Below are positions 7,664 to 26,972 of a stretch of DNA of 64,000 nt, one piece after another. The stretch is from positions 1 through 64,000 of the IMG/VR virus record IMGVR_UViG_3300027987_000212; one strand, written 5' to 3'. The DNA comes from a virus. Made by a program: the position numbers and the translations under genes. How positions within the stretch are numbered: the stretch's first letter is position 1; each line of letters begins with the position of its first letter. The notes beneath the pieces were generated by a model. That model was not told the DNA's origin. It was given only the letters and a program-made list of their open reading frames with translations, and made no database searches.

Positions 7664-7665
7664 CC

Positions 7666-10170: not shown

Positions 10171-10281
10171 ATGAACCTACTTCACTGGTGGCGCGGTCTG
10201 CGGCACTTTCGCTTCTTCCTCCTAATCCCTGGTGGATTCATCCTAGCCGCGGCTGTTCTGTGGCTCTCTGGAGTTCGCTGA
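10171..10281 (+). CDS. possible 36-aa membrane peptide
   Basis: MNLLHWWRGLRHFRFFLLIPGGFILAAAVLWLSGVR; one TM-like segment, no clear RBS. Confidence 0.35.
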   Translation: MNLLHWWRGLRHFRFFLLIPGGFILAAAVLWLSGVR

Positions 10282-10618: not shown

Positions 10619-10900
10619 CTAGGGGCCTCGATTACTCGAGGTCTTCGCGCCTACTGCTCGCTGCACCAGCGCAACTACTTCCCTCGCTAGTACTTTAGGG
10701 TCGCGATTGAAGTCAGCGGGTTCTATCTCCACCTCGTTGTTGCTGTCCTCTACCCGGGTCTGGTGTGGCTTTAGCTCAGAAGTAGTCTCCGCAGCTTTGA
10801 CTAGTAGCTGCAAGCAGGGGCCGAACGTGCGTCGCACACCCACCAGCTTACTGGATGCGCCGAATGAAGCCCCACTGAACCATAGGCCGAAGTTACTCAA
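10619..10900 (-). CDS. hypothetical protein, start uncertain (TTG 10900 used)
   Basis: Open frame downstream of AAGGAG at 10923-10928; contains LLVKAAE, resembling the K-x-A motif of the upstream head-operon proteins. Confidence 0.35.
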   Translation of the reverse strand: MSNFGLWFSGASFGASSKLVGVRRTFGPCLQLLVKAAETTSELKPHQTRVEDSNNEVEIEPADFNRDPKVLAREVVALVQRAVGAKTSSNRGP

Positions 10901-10904
10901 AATC

Positions 10905-11085
10905 GACCGGGGCGCGACGGAACTCCTTTCGCCGCCGACATAGGAGGCGACAGTACAACCCCGCAAAGGCCGACGCCCCGTCAGAGCAGGGCATCGGGAC
11001 AACCACAGCCTGCAGATTACGGCCTGCGTCAGGTACGGGAGTAACCCCTGCGCAGAATCCGCAGGGCGGGTCGTAGTCAGAAACC
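10905..11085 (-). ncRNA. candidate multibranch structured RNA
   Basis: Hairpins CCCUGCG/CGCAGGG, CCGAUGCCC/GGGCGUCGG and CUCCU/AGGAG, with a closing helix UACGACCC/GGGUUGUA; G-U wobbles favour the - strand. Confidence 0.35.
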
Positions 11086-11773: not shown

Positions 11774-14497
11774 TCACTGCTCCTGAAACGCTAGTGACTT
11801 CAAGCCAGCGAGGGTCTGCTCCGTGCACTTCACCGCACGCTCGAGAGCAGAGACCGGAATCGAGGACTGCCCCAAGCGCGCCGCCAAGAGCAACTCACAC
11901 ATCTTGCGCTGTGCCCCCTCGATTTCGGGCAAGTACGATACGAAGGTGCTGAGGTTCTCGGGGCTGAGGAACCCGAGGGACAGCACGGTGTCGACCGCCG
12001 TCGGGTCGGTGAGCACTGCGGCCTCTTTCCACAGGTTGGTACGTAGGGCCTGCGCCAATTCCACGTTCTGCCGTGCGTGCTCCATCACCGATGCACGCTG
12101 CTCCTCGAGCGGGATGATGCAGCGGGCGACCTTGATGGTCGTCGGCTTCTTGTCGACTATCGACCGCGCAAGCTTCTCGACCCCGTAGTCCCGGGGTACC
12201 CCGAGCGCACCGAGTAGGAACAGGGCTCCGTCGATGTTCGTGAACTCCCGCTCGGCCGCCGCCACCTTGGCCACCGGAGTCCCTTCGAAGCTGAACTGCC
12301 CCGAGCTGTCTCCCCGCACTACGACTTGAGCTTCCTTCTCCGGCATGGGCTCTGGCGTCTCCATGCTCTGCAGCGCTACAGCCTCAGTCCCCTCAGTTGA
12401 GGACCACTGCCAGTTCTCCGGAATCAACAACATTTCACCGTTGCCGATGACGTGCTGCACCCCGGGTTGCTTCGAGACGAGGGCCTGCCGACCATCGAAG
12501 ACCTCCGCCACGAACTGCTGCGGCTCTGCCACGTCGCCGGTGGGCGCCGGTGTCATGGAGCCCGTGATGGTCATCGGTACCGTTGCCTGCATCGTACCGT
12601 CCGCCCCAGGGCCGAAGAAGAACCCCGCACCCTCGAGTCGGGTACTGACCGGCAACTGCGTCGTCTGCCGCATGCGCTGTCCCACGATGTCGGCCTGGAT
12701 GGCCGTCCGCTCCCCATTGGTGAAGAGGGCCAGGGGAACCTGCTCGCCCGTGACATCCCACAAGTCCGGAATGACCACGCCAACGAGCGCTTCCCCGTCA
12801 TCCGTCTGCACCTGGTAGCTGCCAGCCACGTCGACCGGCGTCGGCAAGACCTGCGGAGCATCCCCGACGCCCTCCACCTCGTCGGCCATCGTCGCCGAGC
12901 CGGATGCGTCCGCCGCCAGGACGACCTTCTCTCCGAAGCGCAGGAGCGCCTCCTTGCGCGATAGGCGCTCCTCCCGTGGGTCCCAGCAAGCTGCATTGGC
13001 ACTCTTCACCAGGAACTCCGCAGAGCTCAGACGAACGAGCTGAGTCACCGACGGTGGCAACAGCGCCGCAAGCGTGGAAGCCACCTTCTCCGTAGGGATG
13101 GGGGTCACGTTGAGCACCACGCGCATCGCCGGTAGCAACGCGGTCGCATTCTTCTGCAATGCCGCCTCGTTGTCCCGTACGAATTGGTGGAACTCCTCAC
13201 AAGCGCGCACCCCCAGTGTCGGTGCGATGGCCTCGAGCAGCCGCCCGCCGCCGGAGGCATGCTTGGCGATGAACTCGTCGAGCAGCCCCGGGGCGTACCC
13301 ACCAGAGGCCTCCTTTTTGCCCCAGCGTCCCTCCCGCAGGTGCTGCGCCGTCTCTTCGAGTGCCTGCTCCGACGCCGTCTTCTCCCGACGCAATGCGCCC
13401 GCCAAGCCCCCGACCGCCGCTCCCCCAAGCGAACCGGCCAAACCACCCTTGTAGGCTGCGTCCAATCGATGCCCCCTGGGAGCCAACGCCGCCCCAGCCA
13501 ACGAACCGAGCACGTTTCCAGTACCACTACCTGTGAGCGCTCCGGTGAAGCCCTTCTGCACCCGAGACTCCTCCGCTACCTTCAAGGCCTCGAGCCCCGC
13601 AGTGAACCGCGCCGACGCGTCCTTGGCCAACGCCGCCCCACCTGCAGCGCCTACCGCAGTACCACCGACGGCACCACCCGCCACATGCCGTGCACGCCGA
13701 ACCGCATCTCGCTCCGCAGTGGCCTTGCCCGCAAACTCACGTGCCTTGCCGACATGTGCATCATGCGTCTTCGCGAAGAACTCTGGGCTGTTGAAGTGTT
13801 TTTGGTGCTTTGCCGTAGTCTCTGCCGCACGGTCGAACTTAGTAGCTGCACGTTCCAGTGTCCGAACCTTGCTCCCGCTGAGCAACTCCGCCCCGCGACG
13901 AGCTCCATGAGCAACAGTCTGAGCAAGGTTCGCCTCTTTGGCTAACCAATGCTCGAGTGCAGACCCCTCCTTTCCCATGCCGACATTGGTCATCACGCCA
14001 CCACCGCCAAAGCCCATGTTCTGGCGGTATGGAGGGTAGAGCTGTCCAATCATCGACATGTCGCCCGGCGTCATGCCTGTGACATCGAACATGGTGGGGC
14101 GAAACAAGGCCTCACGAAGACGCTCTTCCGTCAACGGCAGCATCGTTGAATCAACCGTAACGAGAATGTCGAATGGCATCAACTTACCATCACTGATGAC
14201 CACCGGAAGTCGCACGGTCTGAATACCAGCCGCCTGCAGCGCGTCGGGACTCGTACCTAGTTGTGCCTCAGTCTGGTTGCTGACCTCGACTGCGCCGAAG
14301 CCGTACCCTTGTTCACCATCCACGCGTTCCATGACCACATGCGGCGTGAAGTCCGAAATGTAAGGAACTTGCTTGTACAGCTCCTGCAGAATCTCTTGCG
14401 GCCAAGAGTTGGGGTCTTCTGGCAGAGCTACTTCCGCAGCAGTCTTCTCGAAAACCAACTCGGGCGGCGTGAGGAACAGCGGTTCATGGTGTTGCAT
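11774..14497 (-). CDS. large probable head/virion protein with many K-x-A motifs and glycine-zipper inserts
   Basis: 907 aa; EKTAA, AKEAN, AKDAS, EKTAS, KKEAS, AKHAS, EKVAS, EKEAQ, WKEAA; two GxxxG-rich segments; AGGAG RBS. Confidence 0.7.
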   Translation of the reverse strand: MQHHEPLFLTPPELVFEKTAAEVALPEDPNSWPQEILQELYKQVPYISDFTPHVVMERVDGEQGYGFGAVEVSNQTEAQLGTSPDALQAAGIQTVRLPVVISDGKLMPFDILVTVDSTMLPLTEERLREALFRPTMFDVTGMTPGDMSMIGQLYPPYRQNMGFGGGGVMTNVGMGKEGSALEHWLAKEANLAQTVAHGARRGAELLSGSKVRTLERAATKFDRAAETTAKHQKHFNSPEFFAKTHDAHVGKAREFAGKATAERDAVRRARHVAGGAVGGTAVGAAGGAALAKDASARFTAGLEALKVAEESRVQKGFTGALTGSGTGNVLGSLAGAALAPRGHRLDAAYKGGLAGSLGGAAVGGLAGALRREKTASEQALEETAQHLREGRWGKKEASGGYAPGLLDEFIAKHASGGGRLLEAIAPTLGVRACEEFHQFVRDNEAALQKNATALLPAMRVVLNVTPIPTEKVASTLAALLPPSVTQLVRLSSAEFLVKSANAACWDPREERLSRKEALLRFGEKVVLAADASGSATMADEVEGVGDAPQVLPTPVDVAGSYQVQTDDGEALVGVVIPDLWDVTGEQVPLALFTNGERTAIQADIVGQRMRQTTQLPVSTRLEGAGFFFGPGADGTMQATVPMTITGSMTPAPTGDVAEPQQFVAEVFDGRQALVSKQPGVQHVIGNGEMLLIPENWQWSSTEGTEAVALQSMETPEPMPEKEAQVVVRGDSSGQFSFEGTPVAKVAAAEREFTNIDGALFLLGALGVPRDYGVEKLARSIVDKKPTTIKVARCIIPLEEQRASVMEHARQNVELAQALRTNLWKEAAVLTDPTAVDTVLSLGFLSPENLSTFVSYLPEIEGAQRKMCELLLAARLGQSSIPVSALERAVKCTEQTLAGLKSLAFQEQ

Positions 14498-14505
14498 GCA
14501 AACTC

Positions 14506-15153
14506 CTATGTCGTAAGGATAATCCCCATTGCTCCGTATACTGAAGCACCCTTGGTTACTAGGATGACTCCCGAGGCAGGTTCAGCTGGTCCAATACTGT
14601 TGCCTCCGTAGGAGATACCTGAGGAGAACTTGGAGGCAACCAACGCACCAATCGAAGAGAGCGGGGTGTTGTCTGTGATGCCATCGAACGAGAGAGCAAT
14701 CGCGGGACCTGCGCTCAAAGCCGTCGCAAAGCCTGTGACTGCTTGGATTGCGGGGGCTTTGACCGCTACAGCTGCGGCAATGAGCCCCTTCAACACACCA
14801 AGTTTGGCAGAGAGCGCACCAGCAAGTGCAGCTTGTGCACTAATTTGACTCGAAAGGGTCAGTTGTACCGGTGGCAGGGAGAGTGCCGCTTGCAACGAGG
14901 CTTGAAGTAGCCCGATGGAAGCCAGCGCAGCTTGCAGCGCAGCCAAGGGATTTCCTACTTGAAGTGCGAGGTTCGCTTGAAGGGTCAACGCAGAATTGAA
15001 CTGGATACCCAGGTCCACCTGCGCATTACCTAGACCTACACCAACAAGTGCATCGAGTTGTGCACTCAGGGGACCCACAAAGCCAACACTTGCCGCAGCT
15101 GCGACGTTCAGAGAACCCAGAGTTCCGCCTGCAACTTCTGTAACTGCAGCCAT
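14506..15153 (-). CDS. Ala/Leu/Gly-rich charge-poor virion protein
   Basis: 215 aa, no R/H/C/W, directly downstream of the spike-like gene. Confidence 0.75.
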   Translation of the reverse strand: MAAVTEVAGGTLGSLNVAAAASVGFVGPLSAQLDALVGVGLGNAQVDLGIQFNSALTLQANLALQVGNPLAALQAALASIGLLQASLQAALSLPPVQLTLSSQISAQAALAGALSAKLGVLKGLIAAAVAVKAPAIQAVTGFATALSAGPAIALSFDGITDNTPLSSIGALVASKFSSGISYGGNSIGPAEPASGVILVTKGASVYGAMGIILTT

Positions 15154-15154
15154 T

Positions 15155-16405
15155 TCAACCTAAAAGCGTGGGGATACCAGTAGACACCGTACCAGTAACG
15201 ATGGGCGCTGCAACCAGCGTTGCAACTACCGGCGCAGTAGCCGGGGGCACAATCATCGACCACGTCGTTCCCGGCACCAATGTCACGTTCACCTGAGACC
15301 CTACTGTGGCAACTGGGTTCTTGCCGCCGTTGAACGTAATCACCCCACCAACCAGCTCGAGTGCGGATGTAGCTTGTATGCGGCCCGTCCCTGAGAAGTT
15401 GAGCGTGAAGTTCTTCCCGAGGACCTCCATGTCCTCCTTCAGTCGAACGCGCAGCTTCTTGGCATTCAAGTACAGAGTGCCGACCATCCGACTCATGAAG
15501 TTGCCGTCTTTGTCGAAGAAGTAGCGCAGCTTTGTAGCTGCCTTGGTCCCCGACTCGAGCGCGCCCGTTCCCGCGTGGATACTCTCGGGTGCCACAAGCA
15601 CCTCACACACGATGGTATCGTCACTGAACCCCAGTTGGGAGAGGTCACTCCCACTCTCCCCGTCCTCTTTGATGACGTCGGTTACTTTGCCGCAGCTCAC
15701 ACGCACTGTAGCCTTCTCCTGGTCCGACAGAATGCGAAAAGTCTGTCGCCACGTGTTAGCAGGATTCGTCTCCGACTCACTCACGTTGACGAACCAGTTG
15801 ATGGAACCGCCTGCGTTGTGGTGCTCGTAGTTCTGCGAGACGTCCGTGATGATGTTCTCGAGCCCGATGTAGAGCCGTTGCGCAAGCTCAGATGCCCCAA
15901 TCTGCAGCACCCCACCACGGTGTAGTACTACGAAGTTGCCGTCACGGCCGCGCATGTAGATGTCGCCAGGCTTGGCGCGCACGCGCCCACCCGCGTATGT
16001 CGAGGTCCCCGTGTACCGGGTAGTGTTGCCCTCTACGCCCGACGGCGTTTCTTCACTTGTCGTATCTGGGATTGCTTCTTGGGGAGAGATGAAGCTGAGC
16101 ACGAAGGGAGCACTACCATCACCGGGGATGCACACCATACACTTTGCGCCCAAGTCTGGGAAAGCGTAGACCCCCTCACCACGGTTGTAATGGAAGTAGG
16201 AACTGCCGCATTGGATGCCGAAGAACCGCTTTTGGTCGAACTTGCTGATGACATCTACTGTCCAAGTGCTGAGGTTGTGGTCAATGATGATGCCCTCGAA
16301 TACGAACGGGGCCGCCATGCCTTCTGGGGTAAAGAACGACGAGCGGAACGACGACCGCATCATCGGGTCGGCGTTGGCGTAGGTGCGTACTCCAGGCAGC
16401 GGCAT
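15155..16405 (-). CDS. baseplate central spike-like protein (gp5/VgrG/Gp138-type OB fold plus beta repeats)
   Basis: N-terminal FEGIIID...TVDV...PDLGAKCMVC...PFVLSF OB-fold pattern; PGDIYMRGRDGNFVVLHRGG beta-strand repeats; tapering C-terminus. Confidence 0.55.
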   Translation of the reverse strand: MPLPGVRTYANADPMMRSSFRSSFFTPEGMAAPFVFEGIIIDHNLSTWTVDVISKFDQKRFFGIQCGSSYFHYNRGEGVYAFPDLGAKCMVCIPGDGSAPFVLSFISPQEAIPDTTSEETPSGVEGNTTRYTGTSTYAGGRVRAKPGDIYMRGRDGNFVVLHRGGVLQIGASELAQRLYIGLENIITDVSQNYEHHNAGGSINWFVNVSESETNPANTWRQTFRILSDQEKATVRVSCGKVTDVIKEDGESGSDLSQLGFSDDTIVCEVLVAPESIHAGTGALESGTKAATKLRYFFDKDGNFMSRMVGTLYLNAKKLRVRLKEDMEVLGKNFTLNFSGTGRIQATSALELVGGVITFNGGKNPVATVGSQVNVTLVPGTTWSMIVPPATAPVVATLVAAPIVTGTVSTGIPTLLG

Positions 16406-19400
16406 TCAGTAATGATACCCCGGCACACCCTTGAGGTGGCCTAGTCCTGGTTTGCCGCTGTCTTTGCCTGTGTACCCGAACTCGGCGCCGTAGACCATGC
16501 CCGGTACCGGGTTGATTCCGTGCAAGTTGGTGCGCCCGCCCGTCGCAGCCGCCTCGAGTACGGTATCGCGCAAGTTCTTGTGCATCATCTTCGCCAGCCA
16601 GTCCTCTGTAGCATCGAGCGTCACCATGTTCACGCCCTTGAGTACTGGGGAGTGTTCTACAGGACGTTTGCCCTGGCTGACCAGGGTCTTGTTGAGGGCG
16701 CGCAGTCCCGGGGCGTTCGTGAAGATGCCCTTGACTAGTTCGCTGTCGCCCGGGTCCCGCACTTTCGTCACCTGCCCCATGGCGGCGACTACCGTCTCGA
16801 CATGCTGTCGTCGCATGTCTGTGCCCTTGGCCCCGCCGTAGATGCGGTGCAGCTCGTCCGTCAGGAAGTTCTGCACCTTTTCCATGTTGCCCGTCGCTTG
16901 GTACAGCCGGTGTGGGTTGAGGTTGGTTCGGTTTGGGTCGCTCAGGGGTTGGCCTGCCTCGACGCGCATCCCCACCTTCGGCGGCTGCCAGGGAACGAAG
17001 CCCGGGGCCTCTGCTGCTTTCGGTAGTAGTTCGTTCAGCGCGTTGCCCTTACGGTCGCGCCCCACGTGGTGCGTCTTGCCGCCAATCCAGACCTTCACGC
17101 CAGTCGAGTCCTTCTCGACCTTCTCGACCTTACCCGTAGTCCGGGCCAAGACCATCTCATCGGGGATGTTGTCAGGCAAATTGGTTAGCTGCTGCACACG
17201 TTCGAAAGCGTTAAGCAGCGACGAGTTGCCACCACGTACCCCGCCCGTGTGGAACGCCTTCAAGGTTAACTGCACGCTCCTCTCTCCCAAAGACTGAGCT
17301 GCTTGTATCCCCACATTCGTTCCCACCTCGTGTAACTGCCCACTCGGAGACAGACCCGCACACTTCTGGCATACCCCCGCATCGTGCTCACATTTGAGGG
17401 TGGAACGTACTACCGCCTTTCCGTGTTTCTTGGCTAGTCGCATCTGGTCGATGAGGTCGGGAGTGAGGGTAGTCCCGGCGGGTAGGTCTACGTTCTTGGC
17501 CTTGAAGGGCTGAGCGAGAATACGGTCATGGAGGACATTACTGGAGAGGGGTAGGGCCACCCCGCGATTCGTACCGCAATCAGGCCCTGCCACCACCATG
17601 TTCATGGCTGCTTGGACTAGCCCCTTGGAGAAGTACCCGGGCTCTTCTACCTCCTGCACCTTCTTGATGGAACCAGCGCGCGCACCATGCATCTGAGTCC
17701 AGTACCCGGCCACATCCAAACCCTCCGAGTACGAGCTAGTCACGGGGGTCTTGACGGGATTGCCTGCACCATCGTTGAGAACCATCGGCGCTAGTACCAT
17801 CTGCCGGTATTGGTCCACACTCGGCTTGACCCCGGCATGGAGCATGATGGCCAAGTTGGTGGGTTTGGTCTTCATCTTCTCGAGGTGCTCTTTGGTCATG
17901 CCCTCACTTGCTTCGGTCCACGCCTCGATGGTCCGTGCGTCCTTCTCCTTGCGTGACAAGGTAGTCTTCTCGACGGCCTTCACCATGGCCTGCGCTTTGT
18001 CGAGGTGCTTCTGGCGTACGGCGACGTCTGGTGTGAAATCGTCTAGACCAAGTGAATGAACTGGGACTGGGATGAAGTGGCGAGTCTCTTTGGCACGCTC
18101 GGCTGCTGCGATGACTTCGGGTGAGTTGTCCCCTCGCTTGACCACTGCGACAGCTCCCGAGGCAGCCCCATTGCCCAAGTCCTTGAGACGGTCTGCGGTA
18201 ACTGCAAACTCATCTCGGTGGTTCTTGGCAAGTCGCTCGAAGAGCTTGGTGATGCCGCCCTTGTCGATGACTTGGTCGTGCTTGGTGAGGATACCGTTAC
18301 GAAGTGGTTCGGGCACCGCTGCAGCTAGTAGAACACGCCCTGGAGTCGTGCGCACTCCACCGATGGTCGTGAGGTTGTTGACGGTGAGCTTGCCGGCCTT
18401 GACTGCCTCGAGTGCATCGCCCGGGGTCTTGTAGCTCCCCTTCTTCTCCCCGTCGATTCGAGAGAGCTTGTAGAGCCCTAGTGCGCTCTCGAGAGTGGGC
18501 GTGTACATGACCCCTCCGGAGGCCACGTTGTAGAGGTTGTTCGAGGGCCGCATTCGCTGCGCTTCTTCTACCGCCTCCCGCGAGATGGGGACGTACGCAC
18601 TCATGGCATCACCGTCGAAGTCGGCGTTGAAGCCACCCGTTACTAGGGGGTGAATTTGGATGGCCTTGCCGGGGGCTAGTCGAGGGGTGAAAGCCTGTAC
18701 CGAGTGGGCATGTAGCGCGGGGTCGCGCTTGAGTAGTACTGGCCTCTCTTTGAAGACACTCTCTAGTGCGCGCCACACGGCCGGCGTCTTCTTGTCTACT
18801 AGCTCACGGGCCGATAAGGCGGTCGGGGCCGCCCCATTTGCGACTAGCTTCTCCACGACAAAAGGCTTGTACATCGTGAGCGCCTGCTCGTGGGGTAGCC
18901 CAACTTCGTCTAGCCCAAGTGCGGGTTCGGGCACGATGACGGAACGCATCGTGAGGTCTTGCTTGCGGTTGAGCAACACCTTCTGGAGGTACCCCTTCTT
19001 CGGTGAAGAGCTAGTTGCGGTTGAGCCTGCAATCTGTGCAAGGAGGCCTTGCGGCATCGAACCACCAACCACACTGCGTGGGTCCTTGCTGGGGGTGTGC
19101 ACCCCTTGGATGGCAGCCACGGCATCGTACATGCTAGCGCGGAAGTCCTTCTTGCGCTGGTCCGTGAGCTGGTCGAGCAGCGAGGGTGGGTTCTCTGCCA
19201 CCATACTGCCCAAGTCGCTGTACAGGCGATTGACATCCTCCCACTTGGCAGAGCCGTCGGGGAGTAGCGATGGCGTGCGCATGATGGGTGGCATCACCGG
19301 GATGTTCTGCAGCGTGTACGCCTCGACTGGCTTGAGCCCCGTCTCCTTGAGCGCGCGCAGGTACTTCACCTTCTTGATGAGCGCGTCCATCGCCGGTGGG

Positions 19401-22400
19401 TTGCCCTTCTTCTTACCCTTGGCGGTGTACTGCTGCTCAGGTACGGTCATCGCCGCCAAGGCCTTTTCGTGTTGAGCCAGGTCTTTCTCCACATCGATGC
19501 CCTCGAGCATCTTTCGGAAGGCGAGACCGCCCGTCACCGAGCCCTCTGTATCGAGAGGCACGAATTTGCCATCCTTCCATGCACGCTCGCCCGTCGCCAC
19601 CCCGCGGTAGTCCTCCTCAGTCAACCCCAACAACTTGCGCACAGGTACCTCGAACACCGGATTGACTACGGGTTCTGGGAGTTCGATGTGCGTCCACTTC
19701 TTGCCGCCCAGCCCACCAGTAAGTCGCGGGTCGAAGAGCCCACCCGGCTTCGGCTTGAGCGTACCCGTGTTCGGGTCCACCTTCGAGTACGTGTGGTCAC
19801 CCGGGTGTACGAGCTTGCCGCTGCTCATCTCGAGCACCTGCTTATCCGTCAGCGGCGTGAGTTGAATCTCGTTACCCTTCTTCTCGAGGTTGATACCTGC
19901 GCCGCGCAGCATGTCCTCGAACTTGCGGTACGAGAACGTGGGCTTGGGTACTGGCAGTGGTCGCCCTTCCACAATGGCTGTCCACGCATTGATGTGCTGG
20001 GACGGGTAGGGGCGACTAGGCTCGAGCAGTTCTCGGGGACCCTCGCTCTTGAACGTCTGCATCTCCCGGATATTGGCCTTGGCACCATGCGTGAGAAGTG
20101 TAACGAGCCCATAGGGGCCCATCGACTGCCCACCACTCTTTCCGCCCTGTGAGGGCAGCAACGTGGACTGCTCGTAGCCTTCCCCTTCACCACCCATACC
20201 CGAGCGCGCTGCCGTCTTCTTGTCGACCTGGTGGACGAGCTTGAGGATGTGCTGCTCACCAACGAGCGCCTTACCCATCTTCAATCCCGTCTCAGGGTCG
20301 AAGAGCTCCTCTTGGTCAGTGAGACCGTGCTTCTTCAAGTCTGACTTGACCTTCTCCACCAACGACTGCCGCTCGAAGCTGTCGACCACGTATGGCTTTC
20401 CCGTCTTGCGCGCAATCTTGCTGGCAGCAGTCTCGAGCACCTGTCCTGTGTTCATGCGACCGGGCACGCCTGACGGATTGAGCGCCACGTCGATGGGCTT
20501 GCCGTCAGCTGTGCGTGGCATCTTGTCGTCATCCACGATGAGCGTAACCACGCCCTTGTTGCCGTACCGCCCCGCCAGCTTGTCCGCAACCTGCATAGGC
20601 TCCACAGACTTGACGTGAACGCGCACCTCACCTTTCTTGCCACGGTAGACATCCACCACCTCACCCGGTTGGTCCCCATCCCACGTCAGCGAGCTATTGG
20701 TGTGCACACCCAAAAGCACCTTGCGCATGGCATTACCCTCGAGCCTGTTCTTGAACCGGTAAGGGTTGGCCGCCAACACCAGCGGGTCTCCGGGGTCAAC
20801 CTTTTGCCCCACACGAACTACACCCCCTTCATCCAACTTGGAGTACTGAGTCTTCGTGTACGCCTCCGGATGGTGCATCTGGAACTTGCTGGGTGCAGTG
20901 ATAGCGTCTGGGCTGAGTTGCGTCGTTGGCTTGTGTAGGTGCTCACTAGCCAAGCGCTCTGCAGCACTCCTACTGATGACCACGCCGTCCTCGAAGTTGT
21001 ACCCCTTGTAGGGAATGTACGCGACGCGCAGATTGGTACCGAGCGCGAGCTCTCCCTTCTGGGTGAAGTTCGTGTCAGCTATGTGCTGTCCGGCAGCAAC
21101 AGCATCACCCACCTTCACCGTGGGCGTGGAGTGCAGCATGCTCTTCTTGTCGTTGAGTGGGTAGTGGTTGTAGAGGCTCACCTTACTCACGCTGCCGTCT
21201 GCTGCACGTACCTCAATGTAGTTGGGCGTGACGGCAGTTACTTTACCTCCCTTGAGTGCTACATGGCTCGTGTTACGTCCTATGACTTGCTCCCACGACT
21301 TGGATGAGTCGTCCTCCGAACCTGTAGCTACTTGGACGAGCGGCGCTTCTCTACGCTTGAGGGAGATGGACTGCTCGATGTGCTGGTCTGCGTACGTCGC
21401 ACGATTACCGGAGACAGTACTGAGAAAGGGGATGAGGTTCGTAGTGACGTTGAAGAACTGCGAAGGGTGCCTAGCGATGTACTGCACACTATTCGCTGGC
21501 ACATCCGTGAGCTCATTGCCCTTCGCCGACGCCTTGACTGTCTTACCCAAGAATGAAGGCTTCCCCCGCTTCCACTCTACTTGGTCGGGCATAGCTACCA
21601 CCGAATCAGCAAAGACGCGCGGATTGACTAGCTCATACTTGTTCGACTTGACGTTGAACAACGTGATGCGCGGCTCATCCCCCACTTTGGTCACACCTAG
21701 CGGCATCCGTAGGGTCACCCCAGTCTTGTCATTCTCTGGTGTGCGTACGGGGTCCAAGAACCCTAGATGCGAGGGGTTTACCAGCTTCAAGCCCACCATC
21801 GTCTTGAGCTCTTCATCGCTCTGAATTCCACCAGAACCCATGGACGTTGTCTGCGACGCACTAGCTAGCATCTCCACTGGGTTGATTTGGTCAGCTTGGC
21901 GTGCTGCCGCATTCCTGGAGAAGGCTTGCTGAATGGGCCGATTGAACATGTCGTACTTCAACACCTCCCGTACGCTGGTAGCCCGCGAAAGCTTGCCCAT
22001 CACACGTTTGCGGATGCTACGCTTGTTCACCGAGTTGTTGTAGAAGTCCTGGATGTAGTCACCCGTCGAACGTAGTACTTTGAATTCGAGAGAATCCCGG
22101 TCATCCTCAGGTGCACCCGCTTGGACATCCAACATTCTCTTCGTCGCGCGCAGGAAGGTGTCCCCATCCACTGAAGTGGCGGCTTTACCGAGTGTCTTGG
22201 CCGTAACCTCGGGGCGCAACTGCACCTCACCCATCTTCTGCACGAAGTACTTGGCTGCTTCCTCCTGGTTGGGTGGCGCAGTCCTTCGGTCTGCTCGGTA
22301 GAACCGCTCGAGTGCTGTAGATGCGTGCGAGGCACCCTTGTTCGCCTGCAAGATGTCCTTTCCCCAGACCTTTTCAAGAGAATCGTCGTCGACACCGAGC

Positions 22401-22912
22401 GTCCTCAGCAAGTGGTAGATGGGGATACGCTCCGTCTTGCCCCGAGACATCACAAACTCTTTGCTTTCGGGGTCGAACGTAACCCGCACGTTGCGGGTCA
22501 CTGGCGTATTGAAGTGCGACTCGAGCTTACCGTTAGCTCGACGTCGTGTGTAGACACCTGGCATCAACTGCCACTGGTTGTCCACCTGCCACTCTTGCCC
22601 GCCCATGATGTAGCTGTGCCGACGCGTGATGACAGGGATGTCGGCAAGACGAATCTGCTGCTTGTCGACTACCTTACCGTCGTTGCTCTTCAAGACGATA
22701 GTACCCGTGACCGGTACACTCCAACTACGCCCTTCTACCTTTGCTTGATGCTGCCCTTGCACATCATCCGCCAGCGTATTGGTGTCGGGTACATGCAAAT
22801 CCTCCAACTCCAGTGACTGGAGCCCACCCACCATGGGGAACGCCGCCCGAATTCCTTCGAGCGTCTTGTTGTTCAAGTCCTGTTGAGCCTTCGAGTAGTC
22901 CAGGTATGCCAC
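16406..22912 (-). CDS. rpoBC: single-chain fused beta-beta' DNA-directed RNA polymerase
   Basis: Beta motifs: DKLAGRYGNKG, LNPSGVPGRMNTGQVLE, RTPENDKTG, KLVHQVDKKTAARS. Beta' motifs: LLKRDPALH, FNADFDGDAM (catalytic), HGARAG bridge helix, AAQSLGERSVQLTLKAFHTGG trigger loop, C..C..CxxC Zn site. Confidence 0.97.
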   Translation of the reverse strand: MAYLDYSKAQQDLNNKTLEGIRAAFPMVGGLQSLELEDLHVPDTNTLADDVQGQHQAKVEGRSWSVPVTGTIVLKSNDGKVVDKQQIRLADIPVITRRHSYIMGGQEWQVDNQWQLMPGVYTRRRANGKLESHFNTPVTRNVRVTFDPESKEFVMSRGKTERIPIYHLLRTLGVDDDSLEKVWGKDILQANKGASHASTALERFYRADRRTAPPNQEEAAKYFVQKMGEVQLRPEVTAKTLGKAATSVDGDTFLRATKRMLDVQAGAPEDDRDSLEFKVLRSTGDYIQDFYNNSVNKRSIRKRVMGKLSRATSVREVLKYDMFNRPIQQAFSRNAAARQADQINPVEMLASASQTTSMGSGGIQSDEELKTMVGLKLVNPSHLGFLDPVRTPENDKTGVTLRMPLGVTKVGDEPRITLFNVKSNKYELVNPRVFADSVVAMPDQVEWKRGKPSFLGKTVKASAKGNELTDVPANSVQYIARHPSQFFNVTTNLIPFLSTVSGNRATYADQHIEQSISLKRREAPLVQVATGSEDDSSKSWEQVIGRNTSHVALKGGKVTAVTPNYIEVRAADGSVSKVSLYNHYPLNDKKSMLHSTPTVKVGDAVAAGQHIADTNFTQKGELALGTNLRVAYIPYKGYNFEDGVVISRSAAERLASEHLHKPTTQLSPDAITAPSKFQMHHPEAYTKTQYSKLDEGGVVRVGQKVDPGDPLVLAANPYRFKNRLEGNAMRKVLLGVHTNSSLTWDGDQPGEVVDVYRGKKGEVRVHVKSVEPMQVADKLAGRYGNKGVVTLIVDDDKMPRTADGKPIDVALNPSGVPGRMNTGQVLETAASKIARKTGKPYVVDSFERQSLVEKVKSDLKKHGLTDQEELFDPETGLKMGKALVGEQHILKLVHQVDKKTAARSGMGGEGEGYEQSTLLPSQGGKSGGQSMGPYGLVTLLTHGAKANIREMQTFKSEGPRELLEPSRPYPSQHINAWTAIVEGRPLPVPKPTFSYRKFEDMLRGAGINLEKKGNEIQLTPLTDKQVLEMSSGKLVHPGDHTYSKVDPNTGTLKPKPGGLFDPRLTGGLGGKKWTHIELPEPVVNPVFEVPVRKLLGLTEEDYRGVATGERAWKDGKFVPLDTEGSVTGGLAFRKMLEGIDVEKDLAQHEKALAAMTVPEQQYTAKGKKKGNPPAMDALIKKVKYLRALKETGLKPVEAYTLQNIPVMPPIMRTPSLLPDGSAKWEDVNRLYSDLGSMVAENPPSLLDQLTDQRKKDFRASMYDAVAAIQGVHTPSKDPRSVVGGSMPQGLLAQIAGSTATSSSPKKGYLQKVLLNRKQDLTMRSVIVPEPALGLDEVGLPHEQALTMYKPFVVEKLVANGAAPTALSARELVDKKTPAVWRALESVFKERPVLLKRDPALHAHSVQAFTPRLAPGKAIQIHPLVTGGFNADFDGDAMSAYVPISREAVEEAQRMRPSNNLYNVASGGVMYTPTLESALGLYKLSRIDGEKKGSYKTPGDALEAVKAGKLTVNNLTTIGGVRTTPGRVLLAAAVPEPLRNGILTKHDQVIDKGGITKLFERLAKNHRDEFAVTADRLKDLGNGAASGAVAVVKRGDNSPEVIAAAERAKETRHFIPVPVHSLGLDDFTPDVAVRQKHLDKAQAMVKAVEKTTLSRKEKDARTIEAWTEASEGMTKEHLEKMKTKPTNLAIMLHAGVKPSVDQYRQMVLAPMVLNDGAGNPVKTPVTSSYSEGLDVAGYWTQMHGARAGSIKKVQEVEEPGYFSKGLVQAAMNMVVAGPDCGTNRGVALPLSSNVLHDRILAQPFKAKNVDLPAGTTLTPDLIDQMRLAKKHGKAVVRSTLKCEHDAGVCQKCAGLSPSGQLHEVGTNVGIQAAQSLGERSVQLTLKAFHTGGVRGGNSSLLNAFERVQQLTNLPDNIPDEMVLARTTGKVEKVEKDSTGVKVWIGGKTHHVGRDRKGNALNELLPKAAEAPGFVPWQPPKVGMRVEAGQPLSDPNRTNLNPHRLYQATGNMEKVQNFLTDELHRIYGGAKGTDMRRQHVETVVAAMGQVTKVRDPGDSELVKGIFTNAPGLRALNKTLVSQGKRPVEHSPVLKGVNMVTLDATEDWLAKMMHKNLRDTVLEAAATGGRTNLHGINPVPGMVYGAEFGYTGKDSGKPGLGHLKGVPGYHY

Positions 22913-22918: not shown

Positions 22919-22931
22919 AGCGTACCGCACC
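22919..22931 (-). promoter_or_regulatory. candidate late/RNAP promoter element GGTGCGGTACGCT
   Basis: Ends 6 nt before the RNAP GTG; near-identical GGTGAGGTACGCT at 32350-32362. Confidence 0.4.
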
Positions 22932-22963
22932 TAAGCCACTGCCGGCAAGTAACGACAAGCATC

Positions 22964-22973
22964 AGGGATAAGA
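22964..22973 (+). promoter_or_regulatory. candidate phage promoter element (AGGGATAAGA)
   Basis: In the divergent intergenic region, just upstream of the AAGGAGG RBS of gene 22993. Confidence 0.45.
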
Positions 22974-22992: not shown

Positions 22993-23091
22993 ATGTCCCA
23001 CAACCCTGACGACGACACTGAGTACGACAACTCCGGACAAGTCCTAGAAGAAGAACTGCACAAGCTATTCGGAAGGCCTACGGAGGAATGA
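22993..23091 (+). CDS. 32-aa acidic peptide
   Basis: MSHNPDDDTEYDNSGQVLEEELHKLFGRPTEE, strong AAGGAGG RBS. Confidence 0.55.
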   Translation: MSHNPDDDTEYDNSGQVLEEELHKLFGRPTEE

Positions 23092-23210
23092 CCCTGTTCT
23101 GGCTCGGATTCATCTCTGGCGCACTACTCGGGCTACTCGAGTGGGCCCACGAAGTACTCTACGCCGAATCGTACTACGCCTACTACCAGCAAACGACCAA
23201 TGCTTATTGA
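23088..23210 (+). CDS. 40-aa membrane peptide
   Basis: MTLFWLGFISGALLGLLEW..., GGAGG RBS and ATGA overlap. Confidence 0.55.
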   Translation: MTLFWLGFISGALLGLLEWAHEVLYAESYYAYYQQTTNAY

Positions 23211-24414: not shown

Positions 24415-25701
24415 ATGGCCGCTAGAAAAACAACCCCCAGTACAAGCACCTCAGCAACCGGCGACCTCATCGATGCAGAGGTCCCCGATGCTACCCAGCA
24501 CATCGACGATATCCTCAAGGTAGCCCTGTTCACTCCTTTAGGTAGCCCCAAAGACCCAGAGTGTCGTTGGGGCTTGCCCACAATCTTCTGGGGTGGGTCA
24601 GGTATAGCCAAGTCTGAGCGCATTGAACAAATAGCGGCAGCGGCGGCGTTACCCTACGGAGTAATATTCCCCGCCCAACATCCGCCGGAGGACTTCTCGG
24701 GTGCCTTGGTTCCCGGCAAAGACGGTACCCCCCAAATGTACTGCACACTACCCTACGTTCAACGGCTGGCTGCACTAGGTAAAGGGCTGCTCTTCATTGA
24801 TGAAGCCAGCGGCGCATCGCCAGCCGTGCAAGGCGCAATGCTAGGTTTCGTCAACGACCGACGAGCGGGTGAGTTGGTCCTGCCTGGCAAAGTGCGGTTG
24901 CTGCTTGCAGCTAACCCACCCAAGTACTCGGCAGGTGGATGGCGGCTCTCGGCACCCTCCGCCAATCGCTTGACCCACTTCAAAGTTCGCGCCCCTTCTG
25001 GTGCCGCTTGGGCAGATTGGCTCATCACGGAGGGCATGAAGGAAAGTGTGGCCGTTACGTTATTCGAGCAGACAGTCATCAACAACTGGGCTCGCTGCTA
25101 CTCTCGCATCAAAGGGTTGGGCGCTGGATTCATGCGAGTCAACAGTGCCGCATTGTACCAACAACCCGAACACAACAATCCCCAGTCGGGGTATTGCTGG
25201 CCCTCTCCTCGTACGTGGGTACGTGGGCTACGCGCAGCTGCCACCGCAGAAGCCTTAGGACTATCTGAGGCTGTTCGTGACCTCATGTTGGAGGGGTGCG
25301 TGGGACCGGGCGTCATCACCGAGTTCTTAAAGTGGGTCAAGGCAAACGACTTACCACTACCCGAGCAGGTACTGATTCGGGGTGGCTGGGTCCCTAACCC
25401 GCATCGTGTTGACATCAACTATGCAGTGGTCACCTCCTGTACTTCCTACGTACTCGAGCAACAGCTACCACCAGAGCAGGTAGCCCTAGCTACTAGCTGC
25501 TGGAAACTGGCAAAAGCGCTCGTAGACAACCACTTAGCAGACCTCGCATTCCAAGCGGCTACTACGCTGATACGCGCCAAGTTGGGGACAAACAGCATAC
25601 ACAAGGACCACAACTTGAAGAACGCTGCCTTCGAGTGCATATCCTTGTTCACTGACCCCAAGTACGCCAGCCTGGCAGAGATGGCGGGCAGCGACTCATG
25701 A
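24415..25701 (+). CDS. MoxR-like AAA+ ATPase
   Basis: Walker A variant WGGSGIAKS, Walker B LLFIDE, AANPP sensor, LSAPSANR, PSPRTW; AGGAG RBS. Confidence 0.85.
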   Translation: MAARKTTPSTSTSATGDLIDAEVPDATQHIDDILKVALFTPLGSPKDPECRWGLPTIFWGGSGIAKSERIEQIAAAAALPYGVIFPAQHPPEDFSGALVPGKDGTPQMYCTLPYVQRLAALGKGLLFIDEASGASPAVQGAMLGFVNDRRAGELVLPGKVRLLLAANPPKYSAGGWRLSAPSANRLTHFKVRAPSGAAWADWLITEGMKESVAVTLFEQTVINNWARCYSRIKGLGAGFMRVNSAALYQQPEHNNPQSGYCWPSPRTWVRGLRAAATAEALGLSEAVRDLMLEGCVGPGVITEFLKWVKANDLPLPEQVLIRGGWVPNPHRVDINYAVVTSCTSYVLEQQLPPEQVALATSCWKLAKALVDNHLADLAFQAATTLIRAKLGTNSIHKDHNLKNAAFECISLFTDPKYASLAEMAGSDS

Positions 25702-26972
25702 GAATCGTCCCACATACTGACCCTACGATAGGGGACGCCCAGATAGCGCTTGCCGAGGCCAGGCTATACGTCAGGTCGTACGCTATCTACTTCTTCTCGA
25801 CTGCGCTGCAGTTGGTGCCTGTATGGGTAGAGGGCTTAGGCACCTTAGGCGTCACTAAACAGCTCGTACTCGCCATCGACCCTGTGTGGTTCACGCAGCA
25901 CACCTCCAAGAAAATGCTTGGAGGCCTTCTTGCCCATGAGATACTCCACGTGAAGCAAGACCTTGCGCGCCTAGATGCCCTAGAGGACAAAAACCGCGCA
26001 AACATCGCTGCCGATATCGTAGTCAACGACATGCTCCTGTCCGCGATGGACCGGGACAACTCAGGTATCTTGCACCCTATCTGGGAGTTACCTGAGGGCG
26101 CCTACACCAGCCAGAAGCTGGGGCTACCTCCGAACAAAACCATCGAAGAGTACTACGCTCTGCTGGAAGACACGAGCATCCCAACTCTCGGCGCATGCCA
26201 AGGATGTTGCGGTAGTCTGGCCGGTACCCCTTTTCCAGGTGACTTGGAAGAAGAACTCAACAGCCTTGTAGGTCGCAGTGAAGCTGACGTACGCACAGTC
26301 AAGCAAGAGCTGAACAACGCGCTGAAGGAATACGCAGAAGGTGCTGGGCGCGGGAAGCTGCCAGCAGGGCTGGAGGTCTTCATCGACTACGAAGACACTC
26401 CGAAAGTCGTTCCCTGGCGTGAGTTGCTGAACGCTAGCCTCTATGCGACATTTGGGATACTCATCGCAGGCTCGACTGACTATTCCCGCCGCAGGCCCTC
26501 CAAACGCTCGTACATGCGAGGCATCATCCTGCCCGGGTTAGTCTCGTACATGCCGGTACTGTGCATCATCGAGGATACCTCGGGCTCAATGGGGGAAAGA
26601 CAGCTGCAGGTATCTCGTGCGGAAACCTGCTCAGTACTGGAGCAGTTAGGCCTTACCCACGTTCACCACGTGAACGCAGACGTCGAACCGGACTACTCTG
26701 GCTACCTCACCTTGCAGGAGCTACAGGAGCTACCTGTGGTAGGCCGCGGTGGTACTGACTTCCGGCCGGCCCTCGAAGCAGCCCTCGCACTAGTACCTAA
26801 ACCCCAAGCCATCATCTACATGACAGACGGCGATGGTACTGCTCCTGCGTCGCCGCCTCCAGACGTCGAGGTAATCTGGTGTATCGTCCCCTCACCTCAC
26901 CGCCGCATGCCAGCAAAGTGGGGTACCGTCGTCATCATGAGTGACGACCCAAACGTGCGAAGGGGCTACTAG
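25698..26972 (+). CDS. metallopeptidase-like (HExxH) plus VWA domain protein (DUF2201-type)
   Basis: LAHEILHV and NIAAD in the N-half; DTSGSM MIDAS, GRGGTDF and YMTDGDG in the C-half. Confidence 0.88.
   Translation: MRIVPHTDPTIGDAQIALAEARLYVRSYAIYFFSTALQLVPVWVEGLGTLGVTKQLVLAIDPVWFTQHTSKKMLGGLLAHEILHVKQDLARLDALEDKNRANIAADIVVNDMLLSAMDRDNSGILHPIWELPEGAYTSQKLGLPPNKTIEEYYALLEDTSIPTLGACQGCCGSLAGTPFPGDLEEELNSLVGRSEADVRTVKQELNNALKEYAEGAGRGKLPAGLEVFIDYEDTPKVVPWRELLNASLYATFGILIAGSTDYSRRRPSKRSYMRGIILPGLVSYMPVLCIIEDTSGSMGERQLQVSRAETCSVLEQLGLTHVHHVNADVEPDYSGYLTLQELQELPVVGRGGTDFRPALEAALALVPKPQAIIYMTDGDGTAPASPPPDVEVIWCIVPSPHRRMPAKWGTVVIMSDDPNVRRGY

What the first reader, a model, noticed from the sequence alone, without database searches (positions are those of the whole stretch)
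16406..22912. Compact single-chain beta-beta' RNA polymerase lacking the clamp Zn-binding domain
All catalytic beta and beta' motifs are in one 2168-aa ORF, about 580 aa shorter than E. coli beta plus beta'. Where cellular beta' has the N-terminal Cys4 zinc domain, this protein runs GGLFDPRLTGGLGGKKWTHIEL with no cysteines; the second Zn site is kept. The rifampicin-pocket region (ARQADQINPVEMLASASQTTSMGSGG) departs from SQFMDQ..PLSEITHKRR, predicting rifampicin insensitivity. No alpha, omega or sigma gene is in the window. Phages with deep-branching multi-subunit RNAPs have been reported from metagenomes, so the lineage is probably not new, but how such enzymes assemble and find promoters is, to my knowledge, not established.
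Basis: partly seen in the sequence, partly recalled or inferred. Interest (0 to 1): 0.72.

Follow-up and report, generated by a model that had tools for sequence, protein, structure and literature searches.

The report
Single-chain phage RNA polymerase with own sigma
A complete 185-kb uncultured phage makes both large subunits of a bacterial-type RNA polymerase as one protein that has lost a zinc domain, and it carries its own sigma factors but no alpha or omega subunit, so it probably runs a largely self-contained two-protein transcription machine that has hardly been studied.

Summary
Window 16406-22912 (-) is one 2168-aa ORF, with beta (residues 1-1014) joined directly to beta' (1015-2168). 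All catalytic motifs are present. It has only four cysteines, and these form the second beta' zinc site. The 40-residue Cys4 zinc-binding domain is replaced by an 8-residue Gly-rich loop in every relative examined.

The interpretation needs correcting:
- "Compact" mostly means the E. coli-specific insertions SI1, SI2 and SI3 are absent.
- The complete genome has no alpha or omega gene, but it has two sigma-70-family genes outside the window. One, of 260 aa, is present in 18 of 19 related genomes and is modelled onto the clamp helices.
- The published metagenomic lineage (mReC) has separate beta and beta' genes. Its probable members keep the zinc domain and fall outside this clade in my small beta tree.
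- The true relatives are hundreds of ~2150-aa metagenomic proteins. More distant relatives are Salmonella phage Arash and three Vibrio phages. Arash particle preparations contained the polymerase and the sigma.

The gene heads a tail-spike operon, behind a conserved promoter of sigma-70 geometry. The enzyme is most likely a sigma-dependent phage polymerase. Packaging in the virion is plausible but unproven. This scan met the same lineage earlier in at least 14 other genomes.

The parts
16406..22912 (-). Single ORF of 2168 aa: fused beta-beta' RNA polymerase (P0001), GTG start, stop at 16406-16408
19871..22912 (-). Beta module, residues 1-1014. It ends ...GINLEKKGN, which aligns with the C-terminus of Salmonella beta.
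   Evidence: 27.5% identity to Salmonella beta
16409..19870 (-). Beta' module, residues 1015-2168. It begins EIQLTPLTDK, which aligns with beta' residues ~20-30. There is no linker.
   Evidence: AlphaFold model of residues 969-2168: pLDDT 87.6, pTM 0.85. Best structural matches are bacterial beta' chains, TM 0.78/0.81.
19691..19717 (-). Gly-rich loop GGLGGKKWT (residues 1066-1074), which stands where the beta' Cys4 zinc-binding domain sits in bacteria
   Evidence: T1065, G1066, G1067, G1070 and W1073 are invariant in 25 homologues.
18608..18628 (-). NADFDGD catalytic Mg-binding motif (residues 1429-1435)
17360..17578 (-). Second zinc site: C1779, C1841, C1848 and C1851, the only cysteines in the protein
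21836..21910 (-). Rifampicin-pocket region (residues 335-359, E. coli beta 510-534), substituted at most classic resistance positions
19121..19273 (-). Beta' clamp helices (residues 1214-1264), the surface on which the phage 260-aa sigma is modelled
22919..22948 (-). Promoter-like element TTGCCG-N18-TACGCT. The -10 ends 6 nt before the GTG and there is no Shine-Dalgarno sequence, so the mRNA is probably leaderless.
   Evidence: The element occurs in 24 of 43 related loci against 0 of 860 random windows.
22945..22972 (+). Divergent phage-type promoter-like site GCAA-N16-GGGATAAG. Its GCAA is the same four base pairs as the TTGC of the RNAP promoter.
15155..16405 (-). Gene directly after the RNAP stop (416 aa): baseplate central spike of the gpV/gp5/VgrG type
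   Evidence: A homologue follows the RNAP gene in 72 related loci.
11774..15153 (-). Two further genes of the same operon (215 aa and 907 aa). In the 907-aa protein, 16 of 36 lysines lie in K-x-A.

Best explanation
The ORF encodes the catalytic core of the phage's own bacterial-type RNA polymerase, with beta and beta' made as one chain. I infer that the covalent fusion replaces the alpha dimer as the assembly platform. The enzyme would take a phage sigma-70-family factor (the clade-conserved 260-aa group-3-like protein at genome 91694-92476, and perhaps the 180-aa ECF-like one at 176073-176615) on its clamp helices. It would then read phage-specific promoters of sigma-28 geometry (GCAA-N15/16-G(G/A)GATAAG) in front of the non-structural gene cassettes. 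Loss of the beta' zinc-binding domain trims the RNA-exit and upstream-DNA face. From what is known of that domain in bacteria, this should change termination and make the enzyme blind to host factors that dock there. The substituted rifampicin pocket predicts drug insensitivity. The gene heads a tail-spike operon, and a distant cultured relative has the polymerase and sigma in particle preparations, so the enzyme is probably made late, packed in the virion and delivered with the DNA to start early transcription. Shown: the gene, its fusion, its motifs, the missing domain, the absence of alpha and omega genes, the conserved sigma, and the synteny. Inferred: alpha-independent assembly, the sigma pairing, the promoter assignment and the packaging.
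For: Enzyme: Pfam domains. Bacterial beta' is the best sequence match, E 4e-104, and the best fold match, TM 0.78/0.81. Catalytic motifs are invariant across homologues. Fusion is the rule in the clade: 120 of the best 120 protein clusters are ~2130-2670 aa. 216 IMG/VR contigs encode a relative, and nearly all the loci I examined have one ORF of 2020-2250 aa, or longer with inteins. Zinc domain lost. No alpha or omega in the complete genome with direct terminal repeats, and no alpha in 19 related genomes. Sigma: r2+r4 and r3+r4 hits. The profile matches SigA, SigF, FliA and SigB. The sigma is present in 18 of 19 related genomes, including Arash gp10. Docking model: ipSAE 0.74 against a best control of 0.00. 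That mark was reached by 58 of 80 solved complexes and 2 of 110 mismatched pairs. The runs share at least 32% of contacts and the partner's pLDDT is at least 70. The interface is RNAP 1214-1264 with sigma 42-82. Sigma-clamp-helix complexes have been solved, so this result shows likeness, not binding. Promoter motif: 18 of 30 G[GA]GATAA sites lie within 150 nt upstream of co-oriented starts, p 9e-12. Virion link: the spike gene abuts the RNAP stop, and this holds in 72 related loci. In Arash particle MS, gp206 gave 3516 spectra (the top protein), gp216 1210 and sigma gp10 467 (PMC10585845). Arash and D69 fall in the same RNAP clade with SH-aLRT 100. There is no sigma-70 consensus promoter in window 1-11000, where 3.5 are expected.
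Against: There is no direct evidence of packaging for this phage. The Arash MS used a phage-only database and scored 116 of 272 proteins as particle proteins, including ribonucleotide reductases and RNA ligases, so lysate carry-over is possible and host alpha could not have been seen. The RNAP gene's own conserved promoter has sigma-70 geometry, which fits early transcription by the host enzyme equally well. The RNAP has no N-terminal extension, and K-x-A is rare in it (8 of 169 Lys), unlike the putative head-processed proteins. Absence of alpha and omega genes does not exclude use of the host's subunits. The GATAA motif precedes the sigma gene in only 2 of 12 relatives. The ECF-like sigma is sporadic, present in 4 of 20 genomes.
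Confidence: 0.6

Rival explanations
1. T7-like cascade without packaging. The host RNA polymerase reads the conserved TTGC-N18-TACGCT promoter soon after infection and makes the phage polymerase. That enzyme then takes a phage sigma and transcribes the rest of the genome. Detection in Arash particles would be carry-over.
For: A promoter of sigma-70 geometry lies upstream of the RNAP gene in 24 of 43 related loci against 0 of 860 random windows. It is one of only two such sites I found in this genome. The Arash particle list is very inclusive.
Against: The same transcript would carry the tail spike and other virion genes, which are late functions. The second copy of the promoter heads another operon of large proteins whose gene string also holds a polyvalent-type protein and the sigma gene. 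The sigma gene itself sits behind a GATAA-type site, not a sigma-70-type site, so sigma would have to come from somewhere else first. Gp206 was the most abundant protein in Arash particles, above the capsid protein.
Confidence: 0.25
2. Hybrid enzyme. The fused beta-beta' chain recruits host alpha2 and omega, and perhaps host sigma, so it is a replacement catalytic core inside an otherwise host-built holoenzyme.
For: The sequence and fold are bacterial-type throughout. Natural and engineered beta-beta' fusions in bacteria still use alpha (established knowledge of Helicobacter RpoBC and tethered E. coli subunits). The phage genome offers no alpha substitute that I could recognise.
Against: Identity to bacterial beta and beta' is only ~27%. 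The clade appears across very different environments and compositions, GC 38-58%, which makes conserved docking to many hosts' alpha less likely. The phiKZ and AR9 enzymes show that alpha-less assembly is possible (PMC7598289). I could not test the alpha-contact surfaces.
Confidence: 0.12
3. The ORF is a decaying or repurposed polymerase homologue with no role in phage transcription.
For: None found, apart from the loss of one domain.
Against: Active-site, bridge-helix, trigger-loop and zinc-site residues are invariant over 57 homologues down to about 34% identity to this protein. Intact ~6.5-kb ORFs occur in hundreds of contigs. Inteins and homing endonucleases target the gene in relatives; from general knowledge such elements favour essential genes.
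Confidence: 0.03

Closest known systems
RNA polymerase of Salmonella phage Arash (gp206 + gp216, with sigma gp10; OQ632216, PMC10585845) and of Vibrio phages D69, D148 and D181
   Same: They share the RNAP clade in the beta tree, SH-aLRT 100, at 31-33% identity. The zinc-binding domain is replaced by the same kind of Gly-rich loop. An orthologous ~240-260-aa sigma is present. Genomes are ~180-187 kb, and Arash is a myovirus. No alpha is found.
   Different: There the gene is cut at about residue 1530 into a 1525-aa beta+beta'N protein and a ~610-aa beta'C protein, separated by other genes. The RNAP sits beside the portal gene rather than the spike gene. I found no homologues of the spike-like or 907-aa neighbours.
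mReC: multi-subunit-RNAP-encoding Caudovirales (Weinheimer and Aylward 2020, PMC7481178)
   Same: Uncultured tailed phages with RNAP large subunits that can be aligned with cellular ones and that branch apart from bacteria.
   Different: In the part of Supplementary Data 2 that I read, every phage row lists beta and beta' as two proteins, and Supplementary Data 1 gives about 30% GC for some contigs. Their capsid and terminase match PF07068 and PF03237, which this genome does not. Probable representatives (L199, L139, L165) keep the Cys4 domain and share 23-25% identity. They fall outside this clade in the tree.
phiKZ and AR9 virion and non-virion RNAPs
   Same: Phage-encoded enzymes of the multisubunit type without alpha or omega. 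One set is carried in the virion, and infection is rifampicin-resistant (PMC7598289).
   Different: Those enzymes are split into four or five polypeptides, come in two sets, have no sigma homologue and use a phage-specific fifth subunit. They are far more divergent: structural TM to phage beta' fragments is ~0.4, against 0.8 to bacterial beta'. Here there is one chain, one set and sigma factors.
Cellular RpoBC fusions (Helicobacter, Wolbachia)
   Same: Beta C-terminus joined to beta' N-terminus in one polypeptide (from established knowledge).
   Different: The cellular fusions are ~2900 aa, keep the zinc-binding domain and work with alpha2 and omega (from established knowledge; not tested here).
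crAss-like gp66 and YonO single-chain two-barrel RNAPs
   Same: Single polypeptide carrying both catalytic barrels.
   Different: Those proteins are barely alignable with cellular subunits (PMC7481178). This protein matches bacterial beta' at E 4e-104 and carries the full set of bacterial modules.
Coliphage N4 virion RNAP
   Same: Functional analogy only: a very large polymerase packed in the capsid and injected for early transcription (PMC7824862).
   Different: N4 vRNAP is a T7-like single-subunit enzyme of an unrelated fold.

Membership tests
Bacterial-type multisubunit RNAP catalytic core | Beta' NADFDGD Mg site and beta' double-psi barrel | tested here: met
   Residues 1429-1435; Rpb1_2 E 8e-26
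Bacterial-type multisubunit RNAP catalytic core | Beta catalytic barrel (Rpb2_6) with the GNKG lysine motif | tested here: met
   Rpb2_6 E 7e-59; R782, G784, K786 and G787 invariant
Bacterial-type multisubunit RNAP catalytic core | Bridge helix, trigger loop and overall beta' fold | tested here: met
   Rpb1_5 E 5e-19. Model pLDDT 87.6. TM 0.78/0.81 to C. thermocellum beta'; E 1e-66 to T. thermophilus beta'.
Bacterial-type multisubunit RNAP catalytic core | Second beta' zinc site (Cys4) | tested here: met
   C1779, C1841, C1848 and C1851 align with the Salmonella cysteines and are conserved in 108-111 of 111 homologues
Bacterial-type multisubunit RNAP catalytic core | N-terminal beta' zinc-binding domain (Cys4) | tested here: not met
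   40 residues replaced by 8; no other cysteine in the protein
Bacterial-type multisubunit RNAP catalytic core | Alpha dimer and omega as partners | tested here: not met
   No PF01000, PF01193, PF03118 or PF01192 hit in the complete genome, while the controls matched in 13-14 of 14 genomes. Use of the host's subunits cannot be tested with these tools.
Bacterial-type multisubunit RNAP catalytic core | Sigma-70-family initiation factor | tested here: met
   Two genes in the genome. One is conserved in 18 of 19 relatives. Docking model 0.74 against a best control of 0.00, a textbook-like pair.
mReC (PMC7481178) | Beta and beta' encoded as separate genes | tested here: not met
   One ORF here. Every phage row in the part of Supplementary Data 2 that I read names two proteins.
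mReC (PMC7481178) | T4-type capsid protein (PF07068) | tested here: inconclusive
   No hit, but the control matched in no genome. The capsid candidate matches phrog_2522 instead.
mReC (PMC7481178) | Large terminase of PF03237 | tested here: not met
   No hit at E 0.01. The terminase matches phrog_675.
mReC (PMC7481178) | Placement inside the mReC RNAP clade | tested here: inconclusive
   Presumed representatives L199 and L139 (same metagenome, 27% GC, separate genes) group with bacteria and not with this clade. Their identity as mReC is presumed, the tree is small and quick, and the authors' sequences were not at hand.
phiKZ/AR9-type phage RNAP | Beta and beta' each split into two or more polypeptides, two enzyme sets, no sigma | tested here: not met
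   One chain and one copy in the genome; sigma genes present
Arash-type RNAP clade | Same RNAP clade and the same conserved sigma | tested here: met
Arash-type RNAP clade | Polymerase and sigma present in particles | not testable with these tools
   Known only for Arash, with caveats

The most novel reading that the evidence does not exclude
This is a minimal bacterial-type holoenzyme of two polypeptides (fused beta-beta' plus a phage sigma). It assembles with no alpha or omega, rides in the capsid and is injected to read phage-specific early promoters. The host polymerase reads the structural operons, including the polymerase gene itself, from leaderless sigma-70-type promoters. That would be a transcription cascade running in the opposite direction to T7.
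Probability: 0.35. Interest if true: 0.8.

Novelty: new variant of a known kind. Interest (0 to 1): 0.6.

Why it matters
Two recent reviews of jumbo-phage transcription state that the polymerase-encoding groups they cover have no recognisable initiation factor, and that the sigma-encoding groups have no polymerase (PMC7598289, PMC7824862). This clade has both, in hundreds of uncultured genomes and a few cultured ones.

If the fused chain and a 260-aa sigma are sufficient, it would be the simplest bacterial-type holoenzyme known. That would make two questions directly testable:
- What are alpha, omega and the beta' zinc domain really needed for?
- How can a 240-kDa enzyme be delivered through a contractile tail?

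The cultured relatives (Arash and the Vibrio phages) make these experiments feasible now.

Tried and rejected
- A search of residues 1000-1330 alone against PDB sequences found nothing. A longer piece was needed to anchor the beta' N-terminus.
- PHROGs and Pfam gave nothing for the genes flanking the RNAP. tblastn of the 416-aa and 907-aa neighbours against cultured phages gave nothing.
- The 215-aa neighbour stayed unexplained: the Atlas search gave no usable hit.
- I first filed the protein under mReC. I withdrew that after reading its supplementary tables and finding that probable members retain the zinc domain.
- An apparently separate 898-aa beta (P0148) turned out to be a fused gene interrupted by a frameshift inside beta. 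A 1173-aa form is cut just before NADFDGD, beside homing-endonuclease signatures.
- The strict TTGC...TAC.CT pattern is not enriched genome-wide: 3 sites against 3.4 expected. Its weight comes only from conservation in relatives.
- The GATAA motif is not conserved upstream of the sigma gene in relatives.
- Literature searches for a described fused phage beta-beta' enzyme of this type found none.
- I did not build a beta' tree, because too few diverse bacterial beta' sequences were at hand.

Full report
**The object**

Window 16406-22912 on the minus strand is one uninterrupted ORF of 2168 codons starting with GTG. The window is the first 64 kb of a 185,327-bp IMG/VR virus record with 144-bp direct terminal repeats, rated 100% complete. 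The ORF is the only polymerase of this type in the record.

Pfam finds the beta barrel (Rpb2_6, E 7e-59) followed by the beta' barrel (Rpb1_2) and the bridge-helix/trigger-loop region (Rpb1_5). The best matches among solved structures are bacterial beta' chains, at E 4e-104.

**The junction and the missing domain**

I aligned the protein with Salmonella beta and beta', taken from a contig that sits in the phage collection. The beta C-terminus (...GINLEKKGN) runs straight into the beta' N-terminus (EIQLTPLTDK...) at residue 1014/1015, with no linker. Identity to both Salmonella subunits is about 27.5%.

The shortfall of 581 aa against 1342 + 1407 aa is largely made up of these absences:
- blocks of 82 and 39 aa in beta (the SI1 region);
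- 103 aa in beta (SI2);
- 35 aa more in beta;
- about 160 aa in the beta' trigger loop (SI3);
- 25 aa near beta' residue 127;
- 32 aa net at the zinc-binding domain.

SI1, SI2 and SI3 are E. coli lineage features, so "compact" is not remarkable in itself. The beta' part is the size of Firmicute beta' chains.

The zinc-domain loss is real and clean. Forty Salmonella residues that carry the four cysteines correspond to GLGGKKWT here. The whole protein has only four cysteines, all at the second zinc site, and they are conserved in 108-111 of 111 homologues. The replacing loop, TGGxGGxxW, is itself conserved, also in phages Arash and D69.

An AlphaFold model of residues 969-2168, built on 57 homologues, has pLDDT 87.6 and pTM 0.85. 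It shows only a short confident loop at that place. The model superposes on bacterial beta' chains at TM 0.78/0.81. Phage beta' fragments of the phiKZ type match far less well.

**The rifampicin pocket**

Against E. coli numbering the protein reads V146D, Q513R, H526S, R529Q, S531T, L533M, I572T and R687E. D516 and Q517 are kept. Most of these states are shared by the family. Insensitivity to rifampicin is a fair prediction from sequence, nothing more.

**Relatives**

A search of 5.8 billion proteins returned, as its best 120 clusters, proteins of about 2130-2670 aa at 50-60% identity. They lie on contigs of up to 200 kb, and some carry LAGLIDADG or intein domains.

IMG/VR holds 216 contigs with a relative. 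Of the 80 loci fetched, 74 hold an open frame of at least 1500 aa: most are single ORFs of 2020-2250 aa, nine are intein-bearing frames of 2477-3259 aa, and three are cut at a contig end. Identity falls to 33%.

Apparent split forms proved to be a frameshift inside beta, or cuts next to homing-endonuclease signatures.

Among cultured phages only Salmonella phage Arash and Vibrio phages D69, D148 and D181 match along the full length, at 31-33%. In them the gene is cut near residue 1530 into two genes that lie apart.

In two quick maximum-likelihood trees of the beta part, the fused proteins plus Arash and D69 form one group with SH-aLRT 100. A long branch separates it from the 11-15 bacterial beta sequences sampled.

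**Not mReC**

The paper is Weinheimer and Aylward 2020 (PMC7481178). In the part of its Supplementary Data 2 that I read, every metagenomic phage row lists beta and beta' as two different proteins. The capsids match PF07068 and the terminases PF03237, and Supplementary Data 1 gives roughly 30% GC for some contigs.

This genome is 57% GC. It has no PF03237 hit, and its capsid and terminase match other families. The PF07068 test was uninformative, because the control matched in no genome.

AT-rich IMG/VR contigs that are probably mReC come from the same metagenome as a listed contig, have 27% GC and carry separate genes. They share 23-25% identity with this protein. Three of them (L139, L165, L199) keep the Cys4 domain. 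Two (L199, L139) fall with the bacterial sequences rather than with this clade in the tree.

A different AT-rich beta' type (L140, L146) also lacks the domain, so the loss is not unique to this clade.

These placements rest on few sequences, a quick search, and a presumed identification of those contigs as mReC.

**Partners**

No alpha N-terminal domain, alpha C-terminal domain or omega model hits the genome, while the controls matched in 13-14 of 14 reference genomes. Alpha is also absent from 19 related, mostly complete genomes.

Sigma is present, outside the window:
- A 180-aa ECF-like protein with regions 2 and 4 lies at genome 176073-176615.
- A 260-aa protein with region 3 and a weak region 4 lies at 91694-92476.

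A profile of the 260-aa family matches SigA/RpoD regions 2.4-4 and full-length SigF, FliA and SigB.

A homologue of the 260-aa protein is found in 18 of 19 related genomes. These include D69 and Arash, where it is gp10, annotated as a sigma factor. The ECF-like sigma is sporadic.

A complex prediction of RNAP residues 1010-1500 with the 260-aa sigma scored 0.74, against 0.00 for the best of three controls. That mark was reached by 58 of 80 solved complexes and 2 of 110 mismatched pairs. The runs share at least 32% of contacts, and the partner's pLDDT is at least 70. The contacts put sigma residues 42-82 on RNAP 1214-1264, the clamp helices. Sigma-clamp-helix complexes are solved many times over, so the pass shows that the canonical interface is preserved in form. 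It does not show that this pair binds.

**Promoters**

Eighteen of 30 lie within 150 nt upstream of a co-oriented gene start (binomial p 9e-12). Many have GCAA or TCAA 15-16 nt upstream, which recalls the sigma-28 layout. They precede cassettes of small genes and the 260-aa sigma gene itself.

A second element stands upstream of the RNAP gene: TTGCCG-N18-TACGCT. It ends 6 nt before the GTG and has no Shine-Dalgarno sequence. The same arrangement (TTGC, 19-21 nt, TAnnnT) occurs within 100 nt of the RNAP start in 24 of 43 related loci and in none of 860 random windows. Its -10 ends 6-27 nt from the start codon.

Its TTGC is the reverse complement of the GCAA of the divergent GATAA-type site.

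A second copy of this back-to-back layout heads the operon of a 1192-aa protein at genome 107691. That operon's gene string includes a polyvalent-type pyrophosphatase protein and the sigma gene.

So there are two promoter classes. Which polymerase reads which class is not shown.

**Virion link**

The gene that abuts the RNAP stop (416 aa) is a baseplate central spike. The evidence:
- Atlas feature and structure neighbours are gp5/gpV/VgrG families.
- All seven weak profile hits in the PDB are spikes.
- An AlphaFold model (pLDDT 72.5) finds VgrG, P2 gpV, pyocin, PVC and phage baseplate spikes with Foldseek probability 0.99-1.0.

A homologue follows the polymerase gene in 72 related loci.

Two genes further on is a 907-aa protein in which 16 of 36 lysines sit in K-x-A (p 5e-6). 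Earlier notes read this motif as a head-protease site. The sigma family has a conserved K-x-A near its N-terminus.

In Arash, particle proteomics found gp206 as the most abundant protein (3516 spectra), gp216 with 1210 spectra and sigma gp10 with 467. That analysis used a phage-only database and accepted 116 of 272 proteins, including metabolic enzymes. It is suggestive only.

**Reading**

The protein is a functional, phage-owned, sigma-dependent polymerase core. I put about 0.8 on that part.

Packaging and delivery for early transcription is the best-fitting scenario, at about even odds. It explains three things:
- the gene's place at the head of a tail operon;
- the sigma gene's place among putative injected proteins;
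- the Arash particle data.

The main rival is a T7-like scheme in which the host enzyme first reads the sigma-70-type promoter. Use of host alpha and omega cannot be excluded.

What loss of the zinc domain does is inferred only from what that domain does in bacteria: it contributes to the RNA exit channel, to contacts with upstream DNA, and to docking of termination and antitermination factors.

**Prior art**

I found no paper that describes the fusion, the domain loss or the conserved sigma of this clade. Two reviews state that jumbo phages encoding multisubunit polymerases lack recognisable initiation factors, and that sigma-encoding groups lack polymerases.

This scan itself met the lineage before, in at least 14 other genomes, and earlier follow-up reports reached much the same reading. 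I reached mine from my own tests. I took from those notes only the promoter, K-x-A and leaderless leads, which I then checked.

Noticed in passing
window 22919-22972: Back-to-back promoter-like pair that shares four base pairs. TTGCCG-N18-TACGCT faces the RNAP gene, probably giving a leaderless mRNA with no Shine-Dalgarno sequence. GCAA-N16-GGGATAAG faces the other way. The layout is conserved in relatives, and a second copy heads the operon at genome position 107691.
   Followed up: partly
window 22996-23199 (+): Two small uncalled ORFs (about 32 and 40 codons) with strong AAGGAGG/GGAGGA ribosome sites. They lie between the GATAA-type site and the 189-aa gene at 23200. The second looks like a membrane peptide.
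   Followed up: no
window 11774-14497 (-): A 907-aa protein of the RNAP operon has 16 of its 36 lysines in K-x-A (p 5e-6). The RNAP itself has few (8 of 169). This may be a head-protease cleavage code, as earlier notes of the scan proposed.
   Followed up: partly
genome G000:91694-92476 (outside the window; L006:1471-2253): The clade-conserved 260-aa sigma has an N-terminal extension with a conserved K-x-K-x-A motif that bacterial group-3 sigmas lack. It is a candidate capsid-targeting or cleavage signal.
   Followed up: no
genome G000:96625-98583 (L131:8626-10584): A 652-aa protein with InPase (PF18823) and DUF5661 domains. To my knowledge these occur in injected polyvalent phage proteins. 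It lies in the same gene string as the sigma gene. ThyX lies at 89613-90425.
   Followed up: no
window 16406-16450 (-): The RNAP ends in a conserved tail, HLKxVPxHxY, and the final Tyr is invariant in 25 homologues. Its function is unknown; it may be a docking motif.
   Followed up: no
window 24415-26972 (+): An AAA ATPase (phrog_1297) followed by a DUF2201 metallopeptidase/VWA protein. The pair is conserved divergently from the RNAP gene in a relative (L008).
   Followed up: no
loci L041, L043, L064-L066, L069, L084, L085, L089: RNAP genes of relatives are lengthened to 2477-3259 aa by inteins or LAGLIDADG elements. In D148 and D181 a homing endonuclease is annotated under the match. In L129 the gene is cut just before NADFDGD.
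   Followed up: partly
loci L140, L146: A separate AT-rich phage beta' type (~1010 aa, 27-30% GC) also lacks the Cys4 zinc domain. AT-rich L139, L165 and L199 keep it. The domain therefore appears to have been lost in more than one phage RNAP lineage.
   Followed up: partly
loci L103, L104: Two contigs binned into Myxococcales and Deltaproteobacteria MAGs carry the fused polymerase at 49-51% identity. These may be phage contigs that were mis-binned, or they may be a weak hint at the host.
   Followed up: no
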